A DNA stretch of 23,305 bases, taken from a virus. The stretch lies in UHGV virus genome UHGV-0337120; one strand, 5' to 3'. Position 1 is the first letter of the stretch; every line of letters begins with the position of its first letter. This document shows positions 1,246 through 21,908 of the stretch, one piece after another. The position numbers and the translations under genes are program-made. The notes below the pieces were generated by a model, which saw only the letters and a list, made by a program, of their open reading frames with translations, did no database searches and was not told the origin of the DNA.

Positions 1246-1758
1246 TCAGCCAAGCCCCAGCATGGAGCGGGTGCGGTCAGAAAGAACATCCTTACCATCA
1301 ATGCGCCAGATGAAGTTCAGCACGTCGATTTCAATAACATCGCTGTTATCAACGCTGAGCTTGTACCAGGTGCATTTCATCGCATAGGTATGTTCGGTAT
1401 CTTCACCCTGTTTGGCCTCGCCCTTGTCGATTTCGACAATGCGACCACGGGCTTCAATATCGACGTACTCAATCCCTTCTTCGGAATAGTATTCACCCGA
1501 GAAGCGAACACGCACGGCATCAATACCGGCGGCGTATTTGGCAAAGATGTGACGATCGACGCCACCAACCGCAAAGGAGAGATCCAGTGCACCATCATCA
1601 AGACCGAGATCCACCGACGCAGAGCCAGGCATACCCGCCCCGCGATACGACTCTGTTTTGCGGGTCAGTTTTGGCGGGGTAAAAGACGTCACCTTGCCCA
1701 GCTTGTTGTCACCGTCCACAAAGACGGTAAACACACGAAGTTTTTTTGGTACGGCCAT
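1246..1758 (-). CDS. FII: Tail tube protein, gpFII-like
   Basis: 170-aa ORF immediately after sheath gene; start overlaps FI stop (TAATG); GGAGG RBS; size and position match P2 FII. Confidence 0.85.
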   Translation of the reverse strand: MAVPKKLRVFTVFVDGDNKLGKVTSFTPPKLTRKTESYRGAGMPGSASVDLGLDDGALDLSFAVGGVDRHIFAKYAAGIDAVRVRFSGEYYSEEGIEYVDIEARGRIVEIDKGEAKQGEDTEHTYAMKCTWYKLSVDNSDVIEIDVLNFIWRIDGKDVLSDRTRSMLGLG

Positions 1759-2951
1759 TAGCTACCTCCAAGAGATGCAAAAGCAGAGCCAAAGAACTCG
1801 TCGGTAAACGTCTGATAGAGTTCCATACATTCCATCGGTGGTACGGGCGTGTATTTGTAGCGAATACGCACAATGCCCTGACGAAGACTGGTTGTATTGT
1901 TGTCGACAATATCGAACCAGCATTCCGCCCCAATGAGTTTTCCGGCTGTCACCAGTGCATCCAGCTTTGCCTTGATAGCGCTCACGGCATCCTTAGCATT
2001 GGCAGGCGTAAGCGGTGAATCCACTATCTGAAGTTGCGCCTCCGCAATGGTGTCAGCCAGTTGCTGCGCCGTACGTGTGTACACCTCAAAGATGTACTCC
2101 GCAGTTTCCGGCGTACGGTTACCCCAGAAACGGAAGGAGCCGTCGCCCTGGTGAATAAGAGTGGTCACCTCGCTGTTGTTCAGCGTGTTGGCATCGCTGT
2201 TTTCATCCTGAAGTGACCAGGAAACAGACGCTGACACCCCAAGAACATTTTTCACAGGCATGTTAGAAAGGGAGCGATGCCAGCCCTGTTCATGGTCGAG
2301 TCGGGCACGAAGACCGCACGCATACGCCGCAGCCGGGAAGGTTTCGTTTTTACCGGACACCGGGTTGAACGCAATGAAATCAGGCCACAGAAGCATGATT
2401 TCGCGACCGGAAATCTTTTTACGGAACGCAATAGCATCGGACGGTTTTGTGCAGCCAGGGCAGCCGGAATACGCAAATGCGCGCATTTTTCCGGCAACAG
2501 TCACCAGTGCAGCCGTGACAGCATCCGATTCAAGGCCCGGAGCGGCAAGAATGCGGGGTCGGCAACCAATACCTTCCATCTGTTCGGCAACCAGAAGCGC
2601 CTGCATACCGCTGTAGCTTCCGTCTTCTTCCGTGGTACCAATGACCAGTTGATCCTGTGTTTTATTCTCAGCCCCCTCTTTTGCCGCCTCCACGCGAACG
2701 ACAATCACCCGTGTACTGACCTGGTCAGATATCGCTTTAAGGGCCTTATAAAGCGTGCCCGCTTTCCCGGCCTTCCCCAGAACAGAAGATACACGGGTAA
2801 TCAGCACTGGCTTGTTAAGGGGGAACTGCCCGGTATCCGCATCATCTGCAACGGCAACAATACCAATGACGCTGGAATCAACGTCATTAATGGCCGTCAC
2901 AAGGTCGGTATTCTCCGTGACGCGCACACCGTGAAATCGTTTTTCAGCCAT
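1758..2951 (-). CDS. FI: Contractile tail sheath protein, gpFI-like
   Basis: Contains FPLNKPVLIT, identical to a remembered P2 FI segment, plus further sheath-like blocks (RILAAPGL, WPDF, RFWGNRT, YTPVPP). Start placed at ATG 2951 (MAEKRFHGV, GGTGA RBS) rather than the track's ATG at 2963. Confidence 0.9.
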   Translation of the reverse strand: MAEKRFHGVRVTENTDLVTAINDVDSSVIGIVAVADDADTGQFPLNKPVLITRVSSVLGKAGKAGTLYKALKAISDQVSTRVIVVRVEAAKEGAENKTQDQLVIGTTEEDGSYSGMQALLVAEQMEGIGCRPRILAAPGLESDAVTAALVTVAGKMRAFAYSGCPGCTKPSDAIAFRKKISGREIMLLWPDFIAFNPVSGKNETFPAAAYACGLRARLDHEQGWHRSLSNMPVKNVLGVSASVSWSLQDENSDANTLNNSEVTTLIHQGDGSFRFWGNRTPETAEYIFEVYTRTAQQLADTIAEAQLQIVDSPLTPANAKDAVSAIKAKLDALVTAGKLIGAECWFDIVDNNTTSLRQGIVRIRYKYTPVPPMECMELYQTFTDEFFGSAFASLGGS

Positions 2952-3026
2952 ACGATTCACCATCAGTTGTGTTTATGCTCGCCTGAATAATCCACCATTG
3001 GCGCACAGCCATCACCTGATGCGGGC

Positions 3027-3044
3027 TGTGGGGATTTTTTTACA
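3027..3044. promoter_or_regulatory. TGT-N12-ACA dyad, candidate Ogr-type late activator site between divergent FI and D
   Basis: TGTggggatttttttACA read directly; centred about 55 nt upstream of plausible -10 elements in both directions (TGATAC near 3081 for D; GATTAT on the minus strand near 2986-2991 for FI). Confidence 0.4.
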
Positions 3045-3104
3045 ACAGAGCCAGACAGAAACGACAAGGTACGCGTGGGATGATACGCACACGGGAGGGA
3101 TATC

Positions 3105-4250
3105 ATGAGCATCACTGAATCAGTAACACATCACATCAACAGCGCACTGGATGCAGCGGAAGATACCGTTAGGGTGCCAGACTTCACTATCACACTGGAA
3201 GGGAAAGATGCCAGCCTGAAGAACATCACGCAGCGCATCATGAGCCTGACCATGACAGACAACAGGGGTTTTGAGGCTGACAGGGTGACACTGGAAATCG
3301 ACGACGCCGACGGCGGGGTGGTACTTCCGGAACGCGGAACACGATTATCGCTGGCGATGGGGTGGAAAGGTGAAAGCCTCACTCGCAAGGGGACGTTTGT
3401 GGTGGACGAAGTGAGCCACGAAGGTCCGCCGGATAAGCTGACCATATCCGCGAACAGTGCGGATTTTCGCGAAGAGTTTAACGTGAAACGCGAAGTCTCC
3501 TGGCATGACGTGACCGTTGAGCGTGTGGTATCTGCCATCGCGCACCGTTACGGACTGAAAGCACAAATCAGCGAAATGCTGATGAATATCGAAATCGACC
3601 ATGCAGACCAGACAGAGGAAAGCGACATCTCGTTCCTCACGCGTATGGCTGACATGCTGGGTGCAATAACCACCGTAAAAAACGGGAGCCTGCTGTTCAT
3701 TCTGCCGGGTGGCGGTGTGACAGCCAGCGGGCGCGCCCTCCCCTCATTCGCCCTGACCCGCTCGGATGGCGACAGTCATCGCTTTCGCATTGCTGACAGA
3801 AAAGCCTATACCGGAGTGAAAGCTTACTGGCTGGATTTAAAGTTCGGCCAGAAGAAGGCCGTGAACGTGAAAAAGCGAAACGCGAAAACCACACAGAAGC
3901 CGGAGAAAAGCAGTTCACGGGAGGGTGGATACATGGAAGGCGCAGAAGGCAATGTATATGTGCTGAGAAAAACCTACCCGAACGAAGAAGCCGCGCGTCG
4001 CGCAGCTGCCGCACGCTGGCAGCAACTTCAGCGGGGTGCAGCAGAATTCAGCATCACGCTGGCGCGCGGACGCGCCGACCTGTATCCGGAGATGCACGGC
4101 ACGGTATCCGGGTTCAAGAGCGATATTGACAATCAGGACTGGGTTATTTCGCGCATTGAGCACGTCATCGACGACAGCGGCTTCACCACCAGACTGGAGC
4201 TGGAAGCAAAAATCGCAGACTGGATAGCAGAGCGCGCCACAACTGGCTAG
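3105..4250 (+). CDS. D: Tail protein / late control protein gpD-like
   Basis: 381 aa; blocks FTITLEGKD, LTMTDNRGFEADRV, SWHD, FLTRMA, GGYMEGAEGNV, AAEFSITLARGRADLYPE, DWVISRIEHV, GFTTRLELE align to P2 gpD from memory; GGGAGGG RBS. Confidence 0.9.
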   Translation: MSITESVTHHINSALDAAEDTVRVPDFTITLEGKDASLKNITQRIMSLTMTDNRGFEADRVTLEIDDADGGVVLPERGTRLSLAMGWKGESLTRKGTFVVDEVSHEGPPDKLTISANSADFREEFNVKREVSWHDVTVERVVSAIAHRYGLKAQISEMLMNIEIDHADQTEESDISFLTRMADMLGAITTVKNGSLLFILPGGGVTASGRALPSFALTRSDGDSHRFRIADRKAYTGVKAYWLDLKFGQKKAVNVKKRNAKTTQKPEKSSSREGGYMEGAEGNVYVLRKTYPNEEAARRAAAARWQQLQRGAAEFSITLARGRADLYPEMHGTVSGFKSDIDNQDWVISRIEHVIDDSGFTTRLELEAKIADWIAERATTG

Positions 4251-4291
4251 AATGAGCGCGAGCCCACCCCGTTTCAGCCTGGGGGACCATC

Positions 4292-4594
4292 ATGCATCCT
4301 TGCCCATACTGCGGAGCAAGTACCCGCACCAGAACAAGCCGCGACGCCAACGATACAGGAACAATCAGGGAGAAATATTACCAGTGCAACAACATTGAAT
4401 GCAGCGCCACCTTTGTGACGCACGAGTTTGTCGTGAGAACCGTATGCCGTCCGCAACCCACCGAAGAACGGGGAGTCGTCCCCGCAGACGCTTTCAAATC
4501 ATGCCACCGGGGAAGGGATCAACTCAGCCTCCCCCTGGGCGATTGCGCCTCCCAGTCAAAAACTGTACATTACGCGCGGGTGCCTTTCGGCTGA
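4292..4594 (+). CDS. ogr: Ogr/Delta-family zinc-finger late transcription activator
   Basis: CPYC...QCNNIECSATF matches the Ogr C-x2-C...C-x4-C finger (P2 Ogr CPLC...QCQNVNCSATF); directly downstream of D as in P2. ORF is 100 aa, longer than P2 Ogr, so the C-terminal extent is uncertain. Confidence 0.8.
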   Translation: MHPCPYCGASTRTRTSRDANDTGTIREKYYQCNNIECSATFVTHEFVVRTVCRPQPTEERGVVPADAFKSCHRGRDQLSLPLGDCASQSKTVHYARVPFG

Positions 4595-4725: not shown

Positions 4726-4866
4726 ATGCCGCAAAAAACGATCATCGTGAGCATTTTATGCTTAACCATGTTGTTGACCGTCTGGATGATACACCGTTCA
4801 CCGTGTGAGTTCAGACTTAACATCATGTGGTCAGAATTTGCGGCGTTCTTGCAGTGTAAACAGTAA
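4726..4866 (+). CDS. hok: Hok/Gef-family type I toxin-like small membrane protein (46 aa)
   Basis: Hand translation MPQKTIIVSILCLTMLLTVWMIHRSPCEFRLNIMWSEFAAFLQCKQ. Shares the spacing CLT-x9-S-x-CE-x-R-x6-E-x-AAF with Hok (R1); GGAG RBS 8 nt upstream; structured 3' region with hairpin at 4875-4896 and terminator at 4961-4991. Too short to appear in the ORF track. Confidence 0.6.
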   Translation: MPQKTIIVSILCLTMLLTVWMIHRSPCEFRLNIMWSEFAAFLQCKQ

Positions 4867-4960
4867 GAAACCGCAGCGGGGGTGAAAGCCCCCGCTATCC
4901 GGTTGCCGAAGGTTCGGTCGAAAGTCGCACCCTCACACGCAAGTCACAAAGAAAAACAAA

Positions 4961-4991
4961 GCCCGCAGCGTAAAAACTGTGGGCTTTTTTT
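4961..4991 (+). terminator. Rho-independent terminator (8-bp stem with one G-U pair, then T7)
   Basis: gcccgcag-cgtaaaaa-ctgtgggc followed by ttttttt. Confidence 0.6.
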
Positions 4992-5061: not shown

Positions 5062-5251
5062 ATATGTGGACAACTCGAAAAATAATCCTTTATTTTTCAT
5101 TGCATTACATCAGTTTTCGCGCCACCCGAAGGTGGCATAAGGGGGTAGCACGTATCGCTATCCCCCTTTATATATCAAATGGTTACGAGTTCAAAGTAGT
5201 TCGGAATAGTGCCATTTAGTCCCCGTTTATGGGCAAAATCTGGACAACTCC
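5062..5251. other. Candidate attP region: two direct copies of AT-N-TGGACAACTC flanking a hairpin-rich core
   Basis: aTGTGGACAactcg at 5063-5076 and atcTGGACAactcc at 5238-5251; from memory the P2 Int arm-site consensus is TGTGGACA. Two hairpins at 5121-5166 lie between them. Position between ogr and int matches P2 attP. Confidence 0.35.
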
Positions 5252-6222
5252 GCAACCGGATTGAACCTTACCGCGTCCTGGAGATAATCAGGTGCAAAGT
5301 GCGCATAGGTCATTGTTTGCTGAATTGTGCTGTGCCCTAAAATACGCTGAAGGGTAATAATGTTCCCTCCATTTATCATGAAATGAGTTGCGAATGTGTG
5401 CCGTAAAACATGCACAGACTGACCGACTGGTAAATCAGGCCGCACAGTCCTTATTGCACTTCTGACTATCGCATAACTGGGGTTCATTAATCTTCCAGTC
5501 GCTTTGACTTTAATCAGAGATTCAAGATCTTTAGCTATAGGAATAACCCGCCGCGATCCATTCTTTGTCTCCATGAAAATAACCTTCCCACCAATTATGT
5601 GTTCACCTTTAATATTGGCAACTTCACCCCAGCGCCCGCCTGTAGCCAAGCTTAACAATACAGCCTTAAGATTATCGCCAGATAAAAGTGCGGTTAGCCT
5701 AGGAATATCATCATGTGCAAGATAAGCCATTTCCGGCTGATTAATTGTTAGCTTGCGTATCTCGTGAAACGGGTTATCACCCACAAACTCTTCAACATCA
5801 ATCAGCTTTTCAAAGAAACCGCTCATCATTGCACAATAACGATTTACCGTTGACTGCTTAATTCCGCGATTCATTAATTCAAGGCGATATCTGATAATAT
5901 TTTTTCGGGTTAAGTGGTCACTTCTGTTAATACCAAGCTCTTGCATATCACGAAGAACCGCTTCAATTCTGACCCGATTCATCGCGCCATAACGATGATT
6001 CTTACCGTGGTACACCCACCACAGTTCCAGAAGATCGCTTAACGCTTTACGTTCAATAGGTTTTTCGACCCAGTCCTTATCGTGATAATGCGTCAGAACA
6101 TGGCGTTCATACATCGCCGCTTCACCACGGGTAGGAAATCGCCGCCGAAATCTTCTTCCTTCAGATCCAGCAGGCCGCACGTCCACACAGTATTTGCCAT
6201 CAGCGAGCTTCTTAATCGACAT
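5227..6222 (-). CDS. int: Tyrosine integrase, P2 Int family
   Basis: N-terminus MSIKKLADGKYCVDVRPAG matches P2 Int MAIKKLDDGRYEVDIRP; C-terminal HVLRHTFATHFMINGGNIITLQRILGH...YAHFAPDYLQDA carries the catalytic R-H-R-Y region. Start set at the ATG giving MSIKK (6222), not the track's 6258. Confidence 0.92.
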   Translation of the reverse strand: MSIKKLADGKYCVDVRPAGSEGRRFRRRFPTRGEAAMYERHVLTHYHDKDWVEKPIERKALSDLLELWWVYHGKNHRYGAMNRVRIEAVLRDMQELGINRSDHLTRKNIIRYRLELMNRGIKQSTVNRYCAMMSGFFEKLIDVEEFVGDNPFHEIRKLTINQPEMAYLAHDDIPRLTALLSGDNLKAVLLSLATGGRWGEVANIKGEHIIGGKVIFMETKNGSRRVIPIAKDLESLIKVKATGRLMNPSYAIVRSAIRTVRPDLPVGQSVHVLRHTFATHFMINGGNIITLQRILGHSTIQQTMTYAHFAPDYLQDAVRFNPVAELSRFCP

Positions 6223-6288
6223 AAGGAAGCCCCCCAATGAAAACATCATCTTGATCACAATTTTGAGAAATAAAGGCCAGATGGACCG

Positions 6289-9611: not shown

Positions 9612-9839
9612 ATGGTCGCCATCCTGAATGTGTGTTGCTGCCCCCCCCTGAACGTGGAAAGAAAAGCCCGCGCATCGCTGCGTTTATTCCGCGACGGCGT
9701 GCGGAATTTTTCACGCATAAAACCCCACGACTACCTGGTAATAAGAATCGGTTTCCGCTGGCGATTACTGAGCAAAAACAACGGGGCGTCATGGGATTTA
9801 TTAACGCACGAAACCTATAACAAAGAGGCCGCGTTATGA
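9612..9839 (+). CDS. Small basic Cys-rich ORF containing a C8 tract; stop overlaps dam start
   Basis: GAGGTGA RBS before ATG 9612; C8 homopolymer at 9641-9648 inside codons 10-13; TGA overlaps the dam ATG (TTATGAGC). Coding status uncertain. Confidence 0.3.
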   Translation: MVAILNVCCCPPLNVERKARASLRLFRDGVRNFSRIKPHDYLVIRIGFRWRLLSKNNGASWDLLTHETYNKEAAL

Positions 9840-10816
9840 GCAAAGAACTGTTATCCGGTACGCCACTGAAATGGGTGGGCGGAAAAAGCCGCATCATGAA
9901 CACACTGAAGGCGCACCTGCCAGAAGCCGACTGTCTGGTTGAGCCGTTCGTGGGCGGCGCATCGGTATTCATGAACACCAGTTACAAGCGTTACATCCTG
10001 GGTGATTCCAATGGTGCGCTGATTAATTTCTACCGGCAAGCCAGGGACAACACCGACAGCCTGATCGACGAGGCGAAAACCCTGTTCCTGAACCACAACA
10101 ACAGGGGTGACTATCTCATCATTCGCGAAACCTTTAACGCAGAGAATCATGCCTTCCTGAACAGCAGAACGGGAATAAGCGACCGCCGTGAACTGCGACT
10201 GGCCGCCATGTTTTTGTACCTGAACCGACACAGCTTTAACGGTTTGTTCCGCGTGAACGGAAAAGGCGATTTTAACGTGCCTTTCGGCTGCTACCGCAAG
10301 CCCTACTTCCCTGAGCGTGAAATCCGCGCATTTGCAGACAAGGCAAACAGCACCCGAACGCTGCTTATCCACGCAGATTTTAAGGATACGCTGAACTCTG
10401 CCAGTCACCTGTTCGGCATGGGCAACACGCTTTGCGTGTACTGCGATCCCCCTTACCTGCAATTCAGTGGCCGGGACAATTTTACCGCCTACGGAAAACC
10501 ATTCGATGAAGACGAGCACGTTCGTCTGAGGGCAGCGCTTGACCGCCTTTCACAGGAAACGGGCGGCATGACCAGCATCACCATCTCCAATTCCGACACA
10601 CCGGAAACCAGACGCATTTATCAGGGTTACCGGATGAACACCATCCTGGCACCACGAAGCGTTGGCGCAAGAACCCGGGAATCAGCACCGGAGGTTATCG
10701 CCACCCTGAGACAGTGCGACGCCTGCGGTCGCCATGGCGGTGGCTACTGCCCGGACTGCGGACCTGTAACGGAAGATGCAACTTACAGCGCGATGTTAAT
10801 CACCGCCAGTACGTAA
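9836..10816 (+). CDS. dam: DNA adenine methyltransferase (Dam family) with Cys-rich C-terminal extension
   Basis: LKWVGGK, CLVEPFVGGASVF (SAM binding), FLYLNR, NVPFG.YRKPYFPE and catalytic DPPY align with E. coli Dam from memory; C-terminus has CDACGRHGGGYCPDCG. Confidence 0.92.
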   Translation: MSKELLSGTPLKWVGGKSRIMNTLKAHLPEADCLVEPFVGGASVFMNTSYKRYILGDSNGALINFYRQARDNTDSLIDEAKTLFLNHNNRGDYLIIRETFNAENHAFLNSRTGISDRRELRLAAMFLYLNRHSFNGLFRVNGKGDFNVPFGCYRKPYFPEREIRAFADKANSTRTLLIHADFKDTLNSASHLFGMGNTLCVYCDPPYLQFSGRDNFTAYGKPFDEDEHVRLRAALDRLSQETGGMTSITISNSDTPETRRIYQGYRMNTILAPRSVGARTRESAPEVIATLRQCDACGRHGGGYCPDCGPVTEDATYSAMLITAST

Positions 10817-11655: not shown

Positions 11656-12083
11656 CGCAAATGCTCGCTGGCAGACAGACCAACAGATGCGCTCGCTTTG
11701 TTTTTTGCGGGCCTGACAAACGCCTTCATGGATGCGCTGTTCGTTTCTTCCAGATACAGAATGCGCTCAATCAGGCGTTCAGTGCTCATGAAATCCCTTT
11801 GCGTAATCAGACGAAGGTAGCTCTGTTTCTGCCAGCACGCCAGTTCGGCGACGAATTCACACTTGCTGCAAAACCAGGAAAAAACAAAAAATGCCAGTCC
11901 GCAAAGACTCATCAGGACGGGGAAACCTACGAGAAGAAAGGACAATACCGCAGCAATCAGCGCCCCGGCGCGCAACATGGCAGCGGCTTTATTGCTGAGT
12001 ATGAAAACCATCTCTTCCAGCCAATAGCTGTACCACAGATGAAAAAAAATCTTCTTGTCTGCTTGCTCCATAGTAACAGGCAT
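11616..12083 (-). CDS. Two-TM membrane protein, antisense to early operon (cargo candidate)
   Basis: ATG 12083 with GGAGG RBS 7 nt upstream; hydrophobic helices AMLRAGALIAAVLSFLLVGFPVLM and LCGLAFFVFSWFC, then a soluble C-terminal domain; 3' end overlaps the convergent upstream gene by 40 nt. Confidence 0.55.
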   Translation of the reverse strand: MPVTMEQADKKIFFHLWYSYWLEEMVFILSNKAAAMLRAGALIAAVLSFLLVGFPVLMSLCGLAFFVFSWFCSKCEFVAELACWQKQSYLRLITQRDFMSTERLIERILYLEETNSASMKAFVRPAKNKASASVGLSASEHLRYSERLICWLCGV

Positions 12084-12469
12084 AAACAACCTCCATTGTT
12101 AATAAACGCCGCTATCCCTCGGCGCATTCCATTTTTGCGCCGCGATTATACATACTTCAGCACGCAACACAAAAACCGCTTGCCAGCGCTCGTCGTGTCA
12201 GGTTACATTTCCGCTGCACCTCATAAAACGGGTGCCGGGATTTCCACCCCGCTGACAAACGAAGCGCACAGCCGCGCCAGCGGTTTTTTTGTGCGTACTG
12301 TATCGCCACGTCTTTTTCGCGTCAGAATTATGGCGGGGCGTACAGGGCCGACTTCGGTCGGGCCGGTTTCTTCGTTTGCCGGTTGTGGAAACCCTGTACG
12401 TCTCGCCACCCTGAGTTTTCCACCTCTGGTTGGTGAGTTTTCAAAATTCACAAACGAAGAGGCCACACC

Positions 12470-12691
12470 ATGGCAAACCGCAAGCAACAGCGCGCCCGCG
12501 CTGAGCGTCTTCACATCCGCAGCGAAATCAACCGCAGACTCCATCGGGCTGCATCTGTCGCCTTTATCATGCAGTCAAACGTATTACACCGACTTAACGA
12601 CGGTATCGCTGCCGGGTATTACGCGGCAGTCTTCAGCTATCTCGCCGAAGATCTGGCAGAACTACAAAGCCTCATCAACCAGCACCGATAA
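12470..12691 (+). CDS. Hypothetical protein (P2 orf82/83-region equivalent)
   Basis: 73 aa; GAAGAGG RBS; follows a 370-bp ORF-free structured region. Confidence 0.45.
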   Translation: MANRKQQRARAERLHIRSEINRRLHRAASVAFIMQSNVLHRLNDGIAAGYYAAVFSYLAEDLAELQSLINQHR

Positions 12692-12759
12692 ACCACATCC
12701 GGAAGCTATCCCACACCTGCACGCGGGAGGCTTCCGCACATCTGTTACCGGAGGTTCTC

Positions 12760-13176
12760 ATGAAGAGCGTTAAGGGGCTTTCAGATATTCAGGACTTTTT
12801 TAACTGGATGTGGGCGGTGGATCCCCTGCTGGCTTCCCGCCTGAACAACTGGCACGACTATTACCGCCGCGCCTGTAAACAGGCTGCCCGCAGCGTCACC
12901 ACATACGGGGATTTCTCCTTCACCGTGGACGGTCGTTACCGCGTGGACGTGAAAGGTGATGGTGATGGACTGGGTTTATTTCACATCAACGGCACCGACA
13001 GTACCGCCATCAGCTGGTCGTCATCAGAGATGGCGCTGGTTCTGGAAATGACAACCCACAGCGTGGCCGTGAAAGGTATATACACCGCAGAAGGTTTTAT
13101 CGGCGAATACCAGCGCCTTCTCGTGCTGTACCGCGCGGCGTTTCAGGTGGCAACTGCCGGGGAGTACGACGCATGA
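12760..13176 (+). CDS. Hypothetical protein upstream of A
   Basis: 138 aa; GGAGG RBS; stop overlaps A start (ATGA). Confidence 0.5.
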   Translation: MKSVKGLSDIQDFFNWMWAVDPLLASRLNNWHDYYRRACKQAARSVTTYGDFSFTVDGRYRVDVKGDGDGLGLFHINGTDSTAISWSSSEMALVLEMTTHSVAVKGIYTAEGFIGEYQRLLVLYRAAFQVATAGEYDA

Positions 13177-18131: not shown

Positions 18132-19175
18132 TCAGCTGGCGCCATCCTGAAGCAGCGAATAGGGATTAAAGCGCATCACTTCAACCCCAAGCCATTCATT
18201 GACATGCTTCATCGCTTCCATGACCGGTTGCAACTCGTTGATGAAAAATACCCTCGCCGCCTTCTCAACGTCACCGAACGCCGCGTTCCCGTCAGGCATT
18301 GCCCCCATCAGCTGAGGCGGTACACGGTGAGCCGCAAGGATATCGTCGCGGGCACTCCCCTTGATGTTAAGGAATTCGTCCTTCGCGGTGATTTGCTGGA
18401 ACGGCAGTATTTGCACACCATCCTTGCCGCCACCTGGCGCGTGCAGAAGGATATTGCGGAACGCCCCCTTGCCACGGGATTCCGTGAGTGTTTTCTTGAT
18501 GGCTTCCACGCTTTCAGCGTTTGCCTGGGCGGCACCAACATAGACAATGCACCCGGCATGTGAACCGTTGTCATAGTAGAGCTTGCGGAACGTATCCGCT
18601 GAGTTCGACAGACTCACCGACAGCAACCCACCGATATACTCCGGCATCCCGTAGATTTCCTGGTTGATATCGGGGTTCAGAACGTGGCACACAGCCCCCT
18701 TACGGAAAGCAAATTCAGAACCATCATCATTGAGGTACCAGTACGTATCGAGATCACTGCCCCGCCGCGTGTATTTCGCCAGCGCAGGACGAAGCGCAAT
18801 GGGTTCACCGAACTTGTTGCGGCGGACTTCAAGATAGGCATTACCGAACACGAACCAGTCCAGCGCAAACGCGGAAAACGCCTGGCGGGACAGTAGCGGA
18901 TGAGGAACAAAGCAGCCGTTCAGGGCATTACGCTTAAAATACAGGGCCGACTGGTGCCATGATGCACGACGCGAGGCGCGAGCAATGGCATTCCAGTCCA
19001 TGGGGGTGTCATAGTAGCGGCCATTATCGGCGCACGACATGTTATCAAGCAGATCAAGACGGCTTGCTTCATAAGGACCGTCAAACGTGAAAGCACTGAG
19101 TGACGGCGCTGATTTCAGTGCATCAGCCAGTGAGCCCGTGCCGCGCTTTCCGGTGTATTTTTTACGTTTACTCAT
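18132..19175 (-). CDS. Q: Portal protein, gpQ-like
   Basis: 347 aa; blocks EPDINQEIYGMPEY, YDNGSHAG, LAAHRVPPQLMG, GDVEKAARVF match P2 Q from memory. Confidence 0.92.
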   Translation of the reverse strand: MSKRKKYTGKRGTGSLADALKSAPSLSAFTFDGPYEASRLDLLDNMSCADNGRYYDTPMDWNAIARASRRASWHQSALYFKRNALNGCFVPHPLLSRQAFSAFALDWFVFGNAYLEVRRNKFGEPIALRPALAKYTRRGSDLDTYWYLNDDGSEFAFRKGAVCHVLNPDINQEIYGMPEYIGGLLSVSLSNSADTFRKLYYDNGSHAGCIVYVGAAQANAESVEAIKKTLTESRGKGAFRNILLHAPGGGKDGVQILPFQQITAKDEFLNIKGSARDDILAAHRVPPQLMGAMPDGNAAFGDVEKAARVFFINELQPVMEAMKHVNEWLGVEVMRFNPYSLLQDGAS

Positions 19176-19180
19176 TGTGT

Positions 19181-20914
19181 TCAGAACTCCATTGCAAAGC
19201 CACGATTATCCTCACGCTCTGCGCCGATTGGCTCATTGATAACAGCAAGCATGGTTGCCCAGGCGAGATCACCATGACTGACACCGCGTGAGCGGTCAGT
19301 GTCATAGGTGATATAGCCGCCGGGCGTCTGTATTTTTCGCACCGATGCAAAGGCCTGTACCAGGTCGCGCTCGCTGCGGTCATACTCCCAGCGTCCGGCA
19401 CGGACCACCTGAAGCATCTTCATGACCAGCGCCCGCTTTGAAGCGATATTAAAGTTATACGGAACAGCCAGGGGGAAGAATTTTTTCACTATCTGATAAA
19501 CCCCTTCCCCGTTCCCGCCGGTGACATCAATCCCGATATGCTTCACATTGTATTTTTGGGTGTACTCCTCAATCAGGGCGGCCTGCTGTTCAAACTCCAT
19601 GCCCTGAACCCTGACGGTTTCCACCGTACGAAAACGCCCACCGGCAACAAGGGGTGGCACGCACACCGACAGCGCCCCGCAGTCCCCCTTCCCGCTGCTG
19701 CCGTTGGCGTCATACCCGAGCCAGACTTCCCTCACCCCCATAGGGCGGACAGCAAAAGGCTTCCAGTCCGGCCATTCGTCATAGCCATCAACACCGCACC
19801 CGACGAGCGTATTCAGACTGAAGGCTGCCTCACCATCACGGACAAATTCGCACATGTACAGATTACGAAATTCACTTTCTGTATTTTCGCCGCGAATAAC
19901 ACCAATATTGGTGTACCGCCATCCGTTAGCGACAGCATCCTCAATAGTGACAATCTGCCGCCATGTTTCGTCAGGAAAGAGCACGCCCCCCTTCAGATGC
20001 GCATGTGAAACATCAAACTCACTGCGTTTTGAGCGTGGCTGTTCGCTGTTCCAGCGGTCCCCCGTCCAGAACTGATACGCCTCATGTGTTTCACCTGACG
20101 GTGTTGAAAAGTAGGTTCGCGTAAGCCCTTCCAGTGTCGCCATTGCCCCAGCAACCTTCCTGAGTTCCACAAAGTTACTGACCCAGAAAAATTCGTCGAA
20201 TTTAAGATGACCGGTATAGGACTGCGCGGTGGCAGCTGACGTACCGAGGAAGTGCAGCTCCGCGCCGTTGGACAGCACGATCTTGTCGCCCCCTTTCAGC
20301 TCAACATCCACTTCCAGCGCCGCCTGCTGAATAAAATGCTTGAACTGATACGCCTGACGACGGGAGGCGGACAAAAATATCTGGTTGCGCTGATACCCGG
20401 CGGAGACGTCATCACGCAGTGCATCAAGGAGCGCCTCGCGCGCAAAATACCAGGTCGCACCAATCTGACGCGACTTCAGGATCATACGGTTGCGGTGGTG
20501 ACGGTTTTCGTACCATTCACGTTGATGCCACGCCAGCGTCGGGAGGATTTTTTCACGAAGCGCGACAATCTGTTCTTCGGTGAAGTGATTTTTCAGTCTG
20601 CGTTTACGGGGCTTTTTACCGGAAACGGCCTGTTCTCCCTGACCGTCATTCAGTTTTTTCAGCTGGCGCGTGAGAAGGTCAATTTCCTTAAAATCGCTGC
20701 CGCTTTTCTCTGTTTTTGTGGTGAGCTGGATCAGGCGCGCATCAATGGACTGGGTGACCCGCTGGATCGGAGGTGTGGCATCCCACTCATCGCGTTTTTT
20801 CCATGAGTAAATCGTGTTCTGGCTGATCCCCATCAGTTGCGAGATTTCCGCAGGTGTGTACCCTTGCCAGTAAAGTTGTCTTGCCCTTATGCGGACAAAT
20901 GCATCCTGAATCAT
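19181..20914 (-). CDS. P: Terminase large (ATPase) subunit, gpP-like
   Basis: 578 aa from ATG 20914 (AGGGGG RBS); adjacent to and co-oriented with Q, divergent from O, as in P2. Confidence 0.9.
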   Translation of the reverse strand: MIQDAFVRIRARQLYWQGYTPAEISQLMGISQNTIYSWKKRDEWDATPPIQRVTQSIDARLIQLTTKTEKSGSDFKEIDLLTRQLKKLNDGQGEQAVSGKKPRKRRLKNHFTEEQIVALREKILPTLAWHQREWYENRHHRNRMILKSRQIGATWYFAREALLDALRDDVSAGYQRNQIFLSASRRQAYQFKHFIQQAALEVDVELKGGDKIVLSNGAELHFLGTSAATAQSYTGHLKFDEFFWVSNFVELRKVAGAMATLEGLTRTYFSTPSGETHEAYQFWTGDRWNSEQPRSKRSEFDVSHAHLKGGVLFPDETWRQIVTIEDAVANGWRYTNIGVIRGENTESEFRNLYMCEFVRDGEAAFSLNTLVGCGVDGYDEWPDWKPFAVRPMGVREVWLGYDANGSSGKGDCGALSVCVPPLVAGGRFRTVETVRVQGMEFEQQAALIEEYTQKYNVKHIGIDVTGGNGEGVYQIVKKFFPLAVPYNFNIASKRALVMKMLQVVRAGRWEYDRSERDLVQAFASVRKIQTPGGYITYDTDRSRGVSHGDLAWATMLAVINEPIGAEREDNRGFAMEF

Positions 20915-20981
20915 TGACGCCCCCTTGCTGTTTGATCTCAAGAGTAAACGCCCGCGCATTCATCCAGGTATCCGGTGCCAT

Positions 20982-20999
20982 TGTCGCCACGCTCTTACA
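20982..20999. promoter_or_regulatory. TGT-N12-ACA dyad, candidate Ogr-dependent late promoter element in the P/O intergenic region
   Basis: TGTcgccacgctcttACA; TATCAT -10 candidate at 21031-21036, about 35 nt before the O start. Confidence 0.4.
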
Positions 21000-21071
21000 A
21001 CATCGCCGCCTTGAGGCGCAGCCATCCCCTTATCATCATGAAGAAAAGCAACCCACAGAAAGGGGATTTAC

Positions 21072-21908
21072 ATGGCAAGTAAAAACGCGCCAGTACGGAA
21101 AAAATTCCGCGTCGCCGTCTCGGGCACCACCATCGACGGGCGTGAGATTTCGGGGCTGATGTTGCGTCAGGCCGCTGAGAATTACGACCCGGAAGTGTGG
21201 GGGTCACGGGTGAACGTGGAGCACATGCTTTCACGTATGCCATCCAGTGAATTCAGTGCCGTGGGCGATGTGATTTCACTGTCCACCGAAGAAATCAGGG
21301 AAGGCAAACTGGCCGGCCGCACCGCACTGTATGCCGAAATTGAGCCCACCGACCGCATGACGCAGATGCTGAATGATGGCAAGAAAATCTACTCAAGCAT
21401 TGAGCTTGAACCCAACATTGATGCCGTTGGCGGCCCTTACGTAATTGGCCTGGCAATGACCGATACCCCGGCAAGTCTCGGCACTGAACGACTGAAGTTT
21501 GCCGCCCAGCAGCGCGCCAGCATCATGCAGTTCAACAGCCGCAGCGGTGAGCCAGTCATGTTCACCGAATGTATGGAAGCGGAACTCGCGGCCTCCGTAC
21601 AGGACAGCACCGAAGAAAGCCAGAAATGGTTTTCGCGCGTCATGGCGCTCATCAGCAAAACCCGTGACACGGACAGCGAGCAGTTCGCTCACGTGCGCGA
21701 AGCCGTCGAGAGCATTGCCACGGAACAGGCCGGCCTTCTGGATCGCTTCCATGCGATGGAAGAGCAACAGCGCAGTGATAAGGCATCACTGGAAACCCTG
21801 ACCCGCGAACTGACTGAACTGAAGGCGCAGCTGAAAACCGAAGATGCGGACAAGGAACAGCGCTTTGCTTCAACCGGTGGCAACAGCCACGCCCTGGCTG
21901 ATTTTTAA
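21072..21908 (+). CDS. O: Capsid scaffolding protein, gpO-like
   Basis: 278 aa; KKFRVAVSGTTIDGREIS..., SIELEPN, GLAMTDTPASLGTE, coiled-coil C-terminus; aligns to P2 O from memory. Confidence 0.9.
   Translation: MASKNAPVRKKFRVAVSGTTIDGREISGLMLRQAAENYDPEVWGSRVNVEHMLSRMPSSEFSAVGDVISLSTEEIREGKLAGRTALYAEIEPTDRMTQMLNDGKKIYSSIELEPNIDAVGGPYVIGLAMTDTPASLGTERLKFAAQQRASIMQFNSRSGEPVMFTECMEAELAASVQDSTEESQKWFSRVMALISKTRDTDSEQFAHVREAVESIATEQAGLLDRFHAMEEQQRSDKASLETLTRELTELKAQLKTEDADKEQRFASTGGNSHALADF

What the first reader, a model, noticed from the sequence alone, without database searches (positions are those of the whole stretch)
2964..3104. Candidate bidirectional Ogr-dependent late promoter
One symmetric TGT-N12-ACA dyad lies about 55 nt from plausible -10 hexamers on both strands. 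A second dyad of the same form sits in the divergent P/O gap (20982-20999). Chance expectation for this pattern is roughly one per 4 kb, so finding one in each of two short divergent late intergenic regions is suggestive.
Basis: partly seen in the sequence, partly recalled or inferred. Interest (0 to 1): 0.4.

Follow-up and report, generated by a model that had tools for sequence, protein, structure and literature searches.

The report
Shared Ogr site, divergent tail promoters
A short symmetric DNA site between two back-to-back tail genes of a P2-like phage is very probably one binding site for the phage's late-gene activator that switches on both genes, an arrangement already known from another gene pair in phage P2, so it is a sound but ordinary regulatory prediction.

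Summary
TGTGGGGATTTTTTTACA lies at 3027-3044, between the tail-sheath gene FI (minus strand) and gene D (plus strand), and TGTCGCCACGCTCTTACA lies at 20982-20999 between P and O. The pattern is not enriched across the window (6 found, 5.7 expected); what is informative is where the two sites lie and how well they are conserved.

In 76 unique FI/D intergenic sequences from relatives with the same divergent gene order, 75 carry T[G/C]T-N12-ACA at the same position. In 19 sequences less than 85% identical to each other, the invariant columns are T.T, ACAAC, a -10 hexamer on the FI side (window GATTAT) and an extended -10 on the D side (window TGgGATGAT). Each hexamer lies 34 bp from the dyad, so the two hexamers are 86 bp apart. 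The start sites annotated for P2's PP/PO pair imply the same geometry, and the P2 record annotates one shared activator site there. An Ogr homolog is encoded just downstream of D.

It is a new member of a known kind (a second PP/PO-type shared Ogr site, associated with an inverted FI-to-U block). Start sites and Ogr dependence are untested. Interest is low to moderate.

The parts
1758..2951 (-). FI tail sheath gene, first gene of the leftward FI-FII-E... tail operon. The longest ORF starts at 2963; the likely true start is the ATG at 2951.
   Evidence: PHROG 23 tail sheath E=4e-113; Pfam Phage_sheath_1; relatives' FI proteins align from residue 1 of the 2951 start.
2987..2992 (-). Predicted -10 hexamer of the FI promoter (GATTAT on the minus strand). 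The predicted start site is near 2980, giving a leader of about 29 nt.
   Evidence: Columns 2987, 2988 and 2991 (A2, A5, T6 of the hexamer) are invariant in 19 non-redundant relatives. It is 34 bp from the dyad in 23 of 24 sequences. P2 PF has GAAAAT 35 bp from its dyad and 7-9 nt upstream of the annotated start site.
3010..3015 (-). Weak -35-like element of the FI promoter (GTGATG, 3 of 6 matches, 17-bp spacer).
   Evidence: The 'TCAC' box is conserved, with invariant column 3013 (= G3 of the hexamer).
3027..3047 (.). Predicted activator (Ogr-family) binding site: TGT-N12-ACA, extended to ACAACA. Centre 3035.5, about -55.5 from both predicted start sites.
   Evidence: Exact match. T3027, T3029 and A3042-C3046 are invariant while the spacer averages 56% identity; hypergeometric P = 5e-5. 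Present at the same position in 75 of 76 unique relatives.
3076..3084 (+). Predicted extended -10 of the D promoter (TGgGATGAT; hexamer 3079-3084). The predicted start site is near 3091, giving a leader of about 14 nt.
   Evidence: TG (3076-77), A3080 and T3084 are invariant. It is 34 bp from the dyad in 22 of 24 sequences, 35 bp in 2. The corresponding far side of P2's PF site has no -10-like hexamer.
3105..4250 (+). Gene D (tail/baseplate hub protein), transcribed rightward.
   Evidence: PHROG 52 E=6.5e-153; Pfam Phage_GPD.
4292..4594 (+). Ogr-family zinc-finger late activator, the presumed protein that binds both dyads.
   Evidence: Pfam PF04606 Ogr_Delta 57.8 bits (cut-off 26.3). 46% identical to P2 Ogr over 54 aa, with all four Cys aligned (C4, C7, C32, C37).
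20982..21002 (.). Second predicted activator site (TGT-N12-ACAACA) in the P/O gap, at the position of P2's annotated PP/PO shared site.
   Evidence: Exact match. All 62 unique P/O gaps examined have T[GC]T-N12-[A/C]CA at this position (P2 itself is TGT-N12-CCA). The P2 record annotates 'activator binding site; pO, pP promoters'.
20941..20946 (-). Predicted -10 of the P promoter (TACTCT on the minus strand), 35 bp from the dyad. Predicted start site near 20934; P likely starts at 20914.
   Evidence: relatives have TAATCT or TACTCT at 34-35 bp; P2 has TAGCCT at -12..-7 of its annotated start site.
21034..21039 (+). Predicted -10 of the O promoter (CATCAT), 34 bp from the dyad. Predicted start site near 21046; the O ATG is at 21072.
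   Evidence: CATCAT, GATGAT or AATCAT at 34-35 bp in nearly all of the 62 unique relatives.

Best explanation
The 153-bp gap between FI (tail sheath, leftward) and D (rightward) is a divergent pair of late promoters that share one binding site for the phage's Ogr-family zinc-finger activator. The site (TGT-N12-ACAACA, 3027-3047) lies exactly midway between the two promoters, 34 bp from a weak -10 hexamer on each side. That puts its centre near -55.5 of both predicted start sites (about 2980 on the minus strand, about 3091 on the plus strand; 111 bp apart). By analogy with P2, the activator bound to the symmetric site recruits RNA polymerase through the alpha subunit C-terminal domain to either flank. 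This would switch on the FI-FII-E-T-U tail operon leftward and D (with read-through into ogr) rightward once Ogr has been made. The FI-side promoter corresponds to P2's PF. The D-side promoter exists only in phages where the FI-to-U block is inverted relative to D, so that D no longer sits at the end of the F operon. Shown here: the site, its conservation, the invariant spacing, the -10 elements, the lack of a consensus sigma-70 promoter, and the presence of an Ogr homolog. Inferred: the start sites, Ogr binding, contact with alpha-CTD, and activation in both directions.
For: The dyad is present. The FI<->D arrangement is shared by P88/Xuanwuvirus, Gemsvirus, Reginaelenavirus, Novemvirus, KSP20 and 13 enterobacterial genome loci. 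A near gap-free alignment has the geometry FI -10 / 34 bp / T[GC]T-N12-ACA / 34 bp / D -10. The hexamers are 86 bp apart in 21 of 24 sequences and 87 bp in 3, while hexamer-to-ATG distances vary (29-39 and 18-22 nt). 75 of 76 unique sequences keep the site. In 19 sequences less than 85% identical to each other, the invariant columns are the half-sites, A2/A5/T6 of the FI -10, G3 of a -35-like box, and TG + A2 + T6 of the D extended -10; the spacer is only 56% identical. P2's annotated PP/PO start sites (3016 and 3127) place hexamers 86 bp apart with TGT-N12-CCA as the central 18-mer, and the record annotates one shared activator site. The scan found no sigma-70 consensus promoter in the gap. 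The Ogr homolog lies 41 nt after D. The extended motif hits only the P/O and FI/D gaps in the complete genomes of Klebsiella phage 3LV2017 and phiT5282H, and the two sites within a genome resemble each other (GTTGTG..CACAAC in both; GGTCTGGCC..CGACAACAAAA in both; window TGT-N10-TTACAACA in both). P2's PF site, which has no divergent gene, has no -10-like hexamer on its far side.
Against: There is no experimental evidence for this phage or its lineage: no start sites have been mapped and no binding or Ogr dependence has been shown. The papers I could read on P88-like phages say nothing about late promoters. The invariant TG extended -10 on the D side could make that promoter partly or wholly independent of the activator. 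The left half-site is degenerate (TGT or TCT), and P2's own sites are imperfect (TGT-N12-CCA), so the consensus alone discriminates weakly; window-wide the pattern occurs at the chance rate. Concordance of TGT versus TCT between the two sites of one genome is only suggestive, and one IMG/VR contig is discordant (L100 against L181). The -10 patterns were defined after seeing the alignment.
Confidence: 0.75

Rival explanations
1. The site works in one direction only. It is the ancestral PF activator site and activates FI alone, while D is transcribed from an activator-independent extended -10 promoter that merely lies nearby.
For: The TG extended -10 motif is invariant on the D side only, and extended -10 promoters can work without a -35 element or an activator (established knowledge). 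The FI side matches P2 PF in hexamer type (GAnnAT) and spacing.
Against: The D-side hexamer keeps a nearly invariant 34-35 bp distance from the dyad across less than 85% identical sequences, while its distance to the D start codon varies by 4 nt. That spacing constraint is unexplained if the promoter ignores the site. The geometry is the mirror image of the FI side and equals that implied by P2's annotated PP/PO start sites. The hexamers themselves are weak (GATGAT, GACCAT, AACCAT).
Confidence: 0.13
2. The dyad is a chance match, and the conserved blocks reflect shared ancestry or binding of a different regulator (for example a host factor or another phage protein) rather than Ogr.
For: Window-wide the pattern is at chance frequency (6 against 5.7). 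Ogr binding has not been shown. P2's own sites do not match the strict consensus.
Against: Five of six half-site positions are invariant against a 56%-identical spacer (P = 5e-5). The same motif sits in the P/O gap at the position where P2's activator site is annotated. In whole genomes the motif is restricted to the two late divergent gaps. An Ogr homolog is present.
Confidence: 0.07
3. The feature is an intrinsic terminator: hairpin CACAGCC(3004-3010)/GGCTGTG(3023-3029) followed by GGGATTTTTTT on the plus strand, with the 'dyad' a by-product of the stem and T-run.
For: The predicted RNA hairpin is -14.5 kcal/mol and is followed by a T7 run.
Against: The fold is not unusual for this composition (z = -1.64; 16 of 200 shuffles fold as well). 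The terminator scan did not call it. Nothing upstream is transcribed on the plus strand, where the sequence is antisense to FI. The hairpin and T-run are absent from all relatives except the closest one (L096), whereas T.T and ACAAC are invariant.
Confidence: 0.03

Closest known systems
Phage P2 PP/PO divergent late promoters with one shared Ogr (activator) binding site
   Same: One partially symmetric site lies midway between two divergent late promoters. There are 86 bp between the -12..-7 hexamers, 34 bp from each hexamer to the central 18-mer, and 111 bp between start sites. The -10 elements are weak and there is no good -35. An Ogr-family activator is encoded in the genome. The window's own P/O gap is the direct counterpart.
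   Different: The FI/D pair controls tail genes rather than the packaging and head genes. P2 has no promoter in front of D (U and D overlap within the F operon). The D-side promoter has an invariant TG extended -10. In this lineage the strong half-site is ACAAC and the weak one is T[G/C]T, whereas P2 PP/PO reads TGT-N12-CCA.
Phage P2 PF late promoter (FI-FII-E-T-U-D operon)
   Same: It drives the same first gene (FI). It has a GAnnAT-type -10 (P2 GAAAAT; window GATTAT) 34-35 bp from the dyad, and the stronger GTTGT half-site lies on the side away from FI.
   Different: In P2 the site serves one direction only, and its far side has no -10-like hexamer. In P2, D is the last gene of this operon; here D is split off and reads the opposite way.
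Predicted Ogr-type sites in other P2-like phages (Smp131 TGT-N12-ACA with PP'/PO' on one dyad; phiRSY1/phiRSA1 TGTTGT-N13-ACAACA)
   Same: These are also motif-based predictions of late promoters upstream of morphogenetic operons, with an Ogr homolog carrying the C4 zinc finger. Smp131 lists the same dyad coordinates for both PP' and PO' (PMC3931495; PMC5694545).
   Different: Those phages keep other tail-gene orders, and in the passages read neither paper reports a shared site for FI and D. Spacer length differs (N13 in the Ralstonia phages).

Membership tests
P2-family Ogr/Delta/B-dependent late promoter | Upstream element of partial dyad symmetry with consensus TGT-N12-ACA | tested here: met
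   Exact match at 3027-3044. T.T and ACAAC are invariant in 19 non-redundant relatives. Consensus as cited in PMC3931495.
P2-family Ogr/Delta/B-dependent late promoter | Element centred at about -55 from the transcription start site | tested here: inconclusive
   Start sites are not mapped. Relative to the conserved -10 hexamers the centre falls at -55.5 on both sides, the same as for P2's annotated PP/PO start sites. The true start sites need RNA mapping.
P2-family Ogr/Delta/B-dependent late promoter | Recognisable -10 but poor -35, i.e. not a self-sufficient sigma-70 promoter | tested here: met
   The consensus scan finds no promoter in 2964-3104. The -35 positions match 3 of 6 (GTGATG, CAGAAA) and the -10 hexamers match 4 of 6 (GATTAT) and 3 of 6 (GATGAT).
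P2-family Ogr/Delta/B-dependent late promoter | Located upstream of a late (morphogenetic) operon | tested here: met
   FI tail sheath lies to the left and D tail protein to the right.
P2-family Ogr/Delta/B-dependent late promoter | Cognate Ogr/Delta-type C4 zinc-finger activator encoded by the element | tested here: met
   4292-4594: Pfam PF04606 57.8 bits; 46% identity to P2 Ogr; four Cys aligned, with a 2-residue longer loop (CX2C-X24-CX4C against X22). It is below NCBIfam's equivalog cut-off (53 against 116 bits), so it is a family member and not an Ogr equivalog.
P2-family Ogr/Delta/B-dependent late promoter | Transcription depends on the activator and on its contact with RNA polymerase alpha-CTD | not testable with these tools
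   This needs reporter assays with and without Ogr, an rpoA109-type host, and in vitro transcription.
PP/PO-type shared (bidirectional) activator site | A single site equidistant from two divergent late promoters, with start sites about 111 bp apart | tested here: met
   Only one conserved dyad is present. The geometry is 34 bp / 18 bp / 34 bp, with 86 bp between hexamers in 21 of 24 relatives. P2 PP/PO is the same. Start sites are predicted, not mapped.
Rho-independent terminator | A stable GC-rich hairpin followed by a U-run, at the end of a transcription unit, and conserved | tested here: not met
   The hairpin has z = -1.64, is not called by the scan, has no upstream plus-strand gene, and is not conserved.

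The most novel reading that the evidence does not exclude
The D promoter arose after the FI-to-U block was inverted next to the ancestral PF activator site. Because the Ogr site is symmetric, a -10 element 34 bp away on its far side was enough to create a new late promoter for the stranded gene D. This would be a natural demonstration that Ogr-class activators work in either orientation. It would also put D, and ogr by read-through, under direct Ogr positive feedback, with the invariant TG extended -10 and/or the conserved -10 at the D stop codon supplying the priming expression.
Probability: 0.45. Interest if true: 0.4.

Novelty: new member of a known kind. Interest (0 to 1): 0.3.

Why it matters
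The result gives a concrete, testable map of late-gene control for a widespread group of P2-like prophages of Enterobacterales: P88/Xuanwuvirus, Gemsvirus, Reginaelenavirus, Novemvirus, KSP20-like phages and this window's phage. In these phages the tail operon is split and inverted, and no separate V-promoter gap or further motif hit was found. They appear to run their late programme from two bidirectional control regions (P/O and F/D), not from P2's three regions holding four promoters. The result also corrects two start codons (FI, P), supplies a lineage-specific motif (T[G/C]T-N12-ACAAC with -10 hexamers 34 bp away on both sides) that can be used for annotation, and shows how a symmetric activator site can be reused after a genome inversion. 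It does not change what is known about how Ogr works.

Tried and rejected
(1) Window-wide enrichment of TGT-N12-ACA: none (6 against 5.7), so the argument rests on position and conservation. (2) The terminator reading of the hairpin plus T7 run at 3004-3040: the fold is not significant (z = -1.64), it is not conserved, and no plus-strand gene lies upstream, so I rejected it. (3) Exact TGT-N12-ACA in P2's own promoters: none. P2 sites read TGT-N12-CCA (PP/PO, PF) or TGT-N11-ACA (PV), so the strict consensus is not required for a real site. (4) I first thought ogr was expressed only from the D promoter. I revised this after finding an invariant TAnAAT/CATAAT hexamer at the D stop codon. (5) An SD-sequestering hairpin in the ogr leader: only 4 pairs, -2.8 kcal/mol, and almost no covariation, so I dropped it. 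(6) Known RNA families in the gap: none; Rfam hits only C4 and isrK elsewhere. (7) Literature: the primary P2/P4 promoter paper (PMC177091) is not held, the NucC/Ogr search returned noise, and the papers on P88 and phiSM do not mention late promoters or Ogr. (8) Co-variation of TGT versus TCT between the two sites of one genome: concordant in the window, P88, 3LV2017, phiT5282H and several IMG/VR contigs, discordant in one. There are too few TGT-type genomes for a test.

Full report
**What the window is.** The window is part of a P2-like (Peduoviridae) temperate phage. On the minus strand lie E (814-1194), FII (1246-1758) and the FI tail sheath gene (1758-2963, or more likely to 2951). D is on the plus strand at 3105-4250, followed by an Ogr/Delta zinc-finger protein (4292-4594). 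Then come the integrase (5227-6258, minus), a Cox-domain protein and the early genes, then Q (18132-19175, minus), P (19181-20959, minus), O (21072-21908, plus) and N. In P2 the F operon reads FI-FII-E-T-U-D-ogr in one direction. Here FI and D point away from each other.

**Check of the observation.** TGTGGGGATTTTTTTACA lies at 3027-3044 and TGTCGCCACGCTCTTACA at 20982-20999. The pattern is at chance frequency across the window: 6 matches against 5.7 +/- 2.6 in shuffles. The probability that both roughly 155-bp divergent late gaps contain an exact match is about 1e-3.

- Two start codons need adjusting. FI most likely starts at 2951 (MAEKRF..., SD GGTGA), in line with the relatives' annotated starts.
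- P most likely starts at Met16 (ATG 20914, SD AAGGGGG). The alignment with P2 gpP and 80 tblastn matches that begin at residue 1 of the shortened protein support this.
- The true gaps are then 2952-3104 and 20915-21071.

**The arrangement is shared.** The divergent FI<->D order, with ogr about 40 nt after D, occurs in these relatives:

- Escherichia phage P88 and other Xuanwuvirus;
- 500465-2 (Gemsvirus);
- Klebsiella phage 3LV2017 (Reginaelenavirus);
- Enterobacter phage phiT5282H (Novemvirus);
- Serratia phage KSP20;
- 13 genome loci, including Edwardsiella, Citrobacter, Trabulsiella, Salmonella, Brenneria, Klebsiella, Serratia, Pantoea and others.

D proteins of this group are 62-76% identical to the window's. 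D proteins of phages with the standard P2 order are about 50% identical. In the complete P88 genome the U-T-E-FII-FI block lies inverted after the invertible tail-fibre segment, and S and V are contiguous, so there is no separate PV gap.

**Comparative footprint.** Aligning from the FI ATG to the D ATG gives an almost gap-free alignment. In 24 sequences the layout is FI -10 (on the minus strand) / 34 bp / T[G/C]T-N12-ACA / 34 bp / D -10. The two hexamers are 86 bp apart in 21 sequences and 87 bp in 3. The distances from the hexamers to the start codons vary, 29-39 nt on the FI side and 18-22 nt on the D side. After adding IMG/VR contigs, 75 of 76 unique intergenic sequences (104 loci) carry T[G/C]T-N12-ACA at the same position; the single exception reads TTT.

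In 19 sequences less than 85% identical to each other (alignment A1, mean column identity 57%), the invariant intergenic columns outside the FI start/SD region (2952, 2961) are these:

| Window columns | Element |
|---|---|
| 2987, 2988, 2991 | T6, A5, A2 of the FI -10 (GATTAT on the minus strand) |
| 3013 | G3 of a -35-like GTGATG, 17 bp from the FI -10 |
| 3027, 3029 | T.T of the left half-site |
| 3042-3046 | ACAAC of the right half-site |
| 3076-3077 | TG of an extended -10 on the D side |
| 3080, 3084 | A2 and T6 of the D hexamer GATGAT |

The 12-bp spacer averages only 56% identity. Five of the six half-site positions are invariant (hypergeometric P = 5e-5). This is the pattern expected of a protein-binding site flanked by two promoters whose positions are fixed relative to it.

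**Comparison with P2.** The P2 RefSeq record annotates a single "activator binding site; pO, pP promoters" (3057-3087), a P start site at 3016 (minus strand) and an O start site at 3127 (plus strand). Taking -12..-7 of those start sites gives hexamers TAGCCT and GAAACT, 86 bp apart. The 18-mer that begins 34 bp in is TGTGTCAGTGATAAGCCA. The geometry in the window's FI/D gap is therefore the same as in an annotated bidirectional Ogr-dependent pair. The predicted start sites (about 2980 and about 3091) are also 111 bp apart.

- P2's PF has GAAAAT 35 bp from its TGT-N12-CCA element, the same hexamer type (GAnnAT) as on the FI side here.
- The far side of the P2 PF site, where nothing is transcribed, has no -10-like hexamer (a single control).
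- The consensus promoter scan finds no sigma-70-type promoter in the gap, as expected for activator-dependent promoters.

**The second dyad.** All 62 unique P/O gaps collected through the terminase gene, including P88 and P2, have T[G/C]T-N12-[A/C]CA at the same position. A P-side hexamer (TAATCT or TACTCT) and an O-side hexamer (CATCAT, GATGAT or AATCAT) lie 34-35 bp away in nearly all of them. In the window these are TACTCT (reverse complement of 20941-20946) and CATCAT (21034-21039). With P starting at 20914, this dyad can also serve both directions, as in P2.

**Genome scans.** The window holds only part of its phage, so I scanned complete relatives with T[G/C]T-N12-ACAAC.

- Klebsiella phage 3LV2017 (35.1 kb) is hit only in the P/O and FI/D gaps, on both strands (GTTGTG...CACAAC).
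- phiT5282H (32 kb) is hit only in those two gaps (both GGTCTGGCC...CGACAACAAAA).
- P88 is hit in both gaps plus two other places.
- The window is hit in both gaps plus two other places.

Within each genome the two sites resemble each other. In the window both read TGT-N10-TTACAACA. That fits one protein reading both sites, although the TGT/TCT concordance is only suggestive.

**The activator.** The 100-aa protein at 4292-4594 matches Pfam Ogr_Delta (57.8 bits against a cut-off of 26.3). It is 46% identical to P2 Ogr over 54 residues, with all four zinc-binding cysteines aligned and a loop two residues longer. It scores below NCBIfam's equivalog threshold, so it is a family member and not a strict Ogr equivalog.

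**Mechanism, and how much of it is shown.** Shown:

- a conserved symmetric site;
- two conserved weak promoters at fixed and equal distances from it;
- the same geometry as P2 PP/PO;
- an Ogr-family protein encoded in the same element.

Inferred from what is established for P2 (my own knowledge, partly echoed in PMC3931495 and PMC5694545): the activator binds the dyad, probably as a dimer, and recruits RNA polymerase through alpha-CTD to either flank. This would turn on FI-FII-E-T-U leftward and D rightward. An invariant TAnAAT/CATAAT hexamer at the D stop codon (window TAGAAT, 4248-4253) suggests that ogr keeps its own promoter, as it does in P2. Late read-through from the D promoter would add positive feedback. 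The main rival is that only FI is activated and D uses an activator-independent extended -10 promoter. The invariant 34-35 bp spacing on the D side argues against this but does not exclude it.

**Rejected readings.** The hairpin (3004-3029) plus T7 run looks like a terminator. Its fold is not unusual (z = -1.64), the scan does not call it, no plus-strand gene lies upstream, and it is absent from all relatives but the closest (L096). Rfam finds nothing in the gap.

**Novelty and verdict.** Shared Ogr sites for divergent late promoters are already known: P2 PP/PO is annotated that way, and Smp131's PP'/PO' are listed on one dyad. Motif-based prediction of Ogr sites in P2-like phages is routine. 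I found no description of the FI/D pair in the papers I could search, but that library is incomplete. The finding is therefore a well-supported new member of a known kind: a second PP/PO-type unit associated with an inversion of the tail block. Its interest is modest. It matters mainly for annotation and as a natural example of a symmetric activator site used in both directions.

Noticed in passing
window 3004-3040 (+): The hairpin CACAGCC/GGCTGTG followed by GGGATTTTTTT looks like a terminator and overlaps the left half-site and the spacer. The RNA fold is -14.5 kcal/mol but z is only -1.64. The T7 spacer is shared only with the closest relative (L096, TGTGTGGATTTTTTTACA); all other relatives have GC-rich spacers. 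An A/T tract inside an Ogr-site spacer is unusual for this lineage, and its effect on DNA bending or activator binding is unknown.
   Followed up: partly
window 4248-4253 (+), with L001-L025 equivalents: An invariant -10-like hexamer lies at the D stop codon (window TAGAAT; relatives TAGAAT, CATAAT, TAAAAT or TACAAT), about 35-38 nt upstream of the ogr ATG, with a weak -35 inside the D coding sequence. It suggests that ogr has its own sigma-70 promoter, as in P2, even though the D-ogr gap is only 41 nt.
   Followed up: partly
window 4254-4291 (+): The ogr leader contains a C-run that could pair with the G-rich ribosome-binding site (relatives: GGAGTTCAACTCCC...GGGAG). The consensus fold has only 4 pairs, -2.8 kcal/mol and almost no covariation, so it is probably not a real structure.
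   Followed up: yes
window 4727-4868 (+): A small hydrophobic ORF (MPQKTIIVSILCLTMLLTVWMIHRS...) lies between ogr and the attP/int region. It sits where P88-like records annotate a 'MokW-like host killing / hok-gef family' protein. Terminator-like hairpins flank it at 4874-4897 (minus) and 4958-4987 (plus).
   Followed up: no
window 12216-12290 and 12326-12413 (+): Rfam hits above gathering score lie in the early region: isrK Hfq-binding RNA (64 bits) and C4 antisense RNA (82 bits). They overlap the predicted ORF 11661-12773.
   Followed up: no
window 20914 vs 20959 (-) and 2951 vs 2963 (-): The longest-ORF start codons of P (terminase large subunit) and FI are probably 15 and 4 codons too far upstream. 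The internal ATGs have good ribosome-binding sites and match the relatives' N-termini.
   Followed up: yes
window 10083-10100, 10215-10232, 10410-10427 (+): Three of the six TGT-N12-ACA matches cluster within 350 bp inside ORF 9836-10816. Two share the core CCTGAACC (TGTTCCTGAACCACAACA and TGTACCTGAACCGACACA). This may be a coding repeat or iterons in the early/replication region.
   Followed up: no
L088 (P88), L256 (3LV2017), L257 (phiT5282H): In the complete genomes of this lineage S and V are contiguous or overlapping, so there is no P2-type PV gap. The extended motif finds no third late site in 3LV2017 or phiT5282H. The late programme may run from only two bidirectional control regions.
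   Followed up: partly
L015 (Vagococcus sp. WN89Y) and L084 (Planococcaceae MAG UBA3378): Assemblies labelled as Gram-positive Firmicutes carry P88-like enterobacterial prophage sequence; the FI/D gap of L015 is nearly identical to P88's. Contamination or mis-binning is likely.
   Followed up: no
L006 (Citrobacter phage Shae_phiSM, OR565851): The deposited annotation appears shifted by one gene. The tail sheath CDS is labelled 'late control gene D protein' and the D CDS is labelled 'ogr/Delta-like zinc finger family protein'.
   Followed up: no
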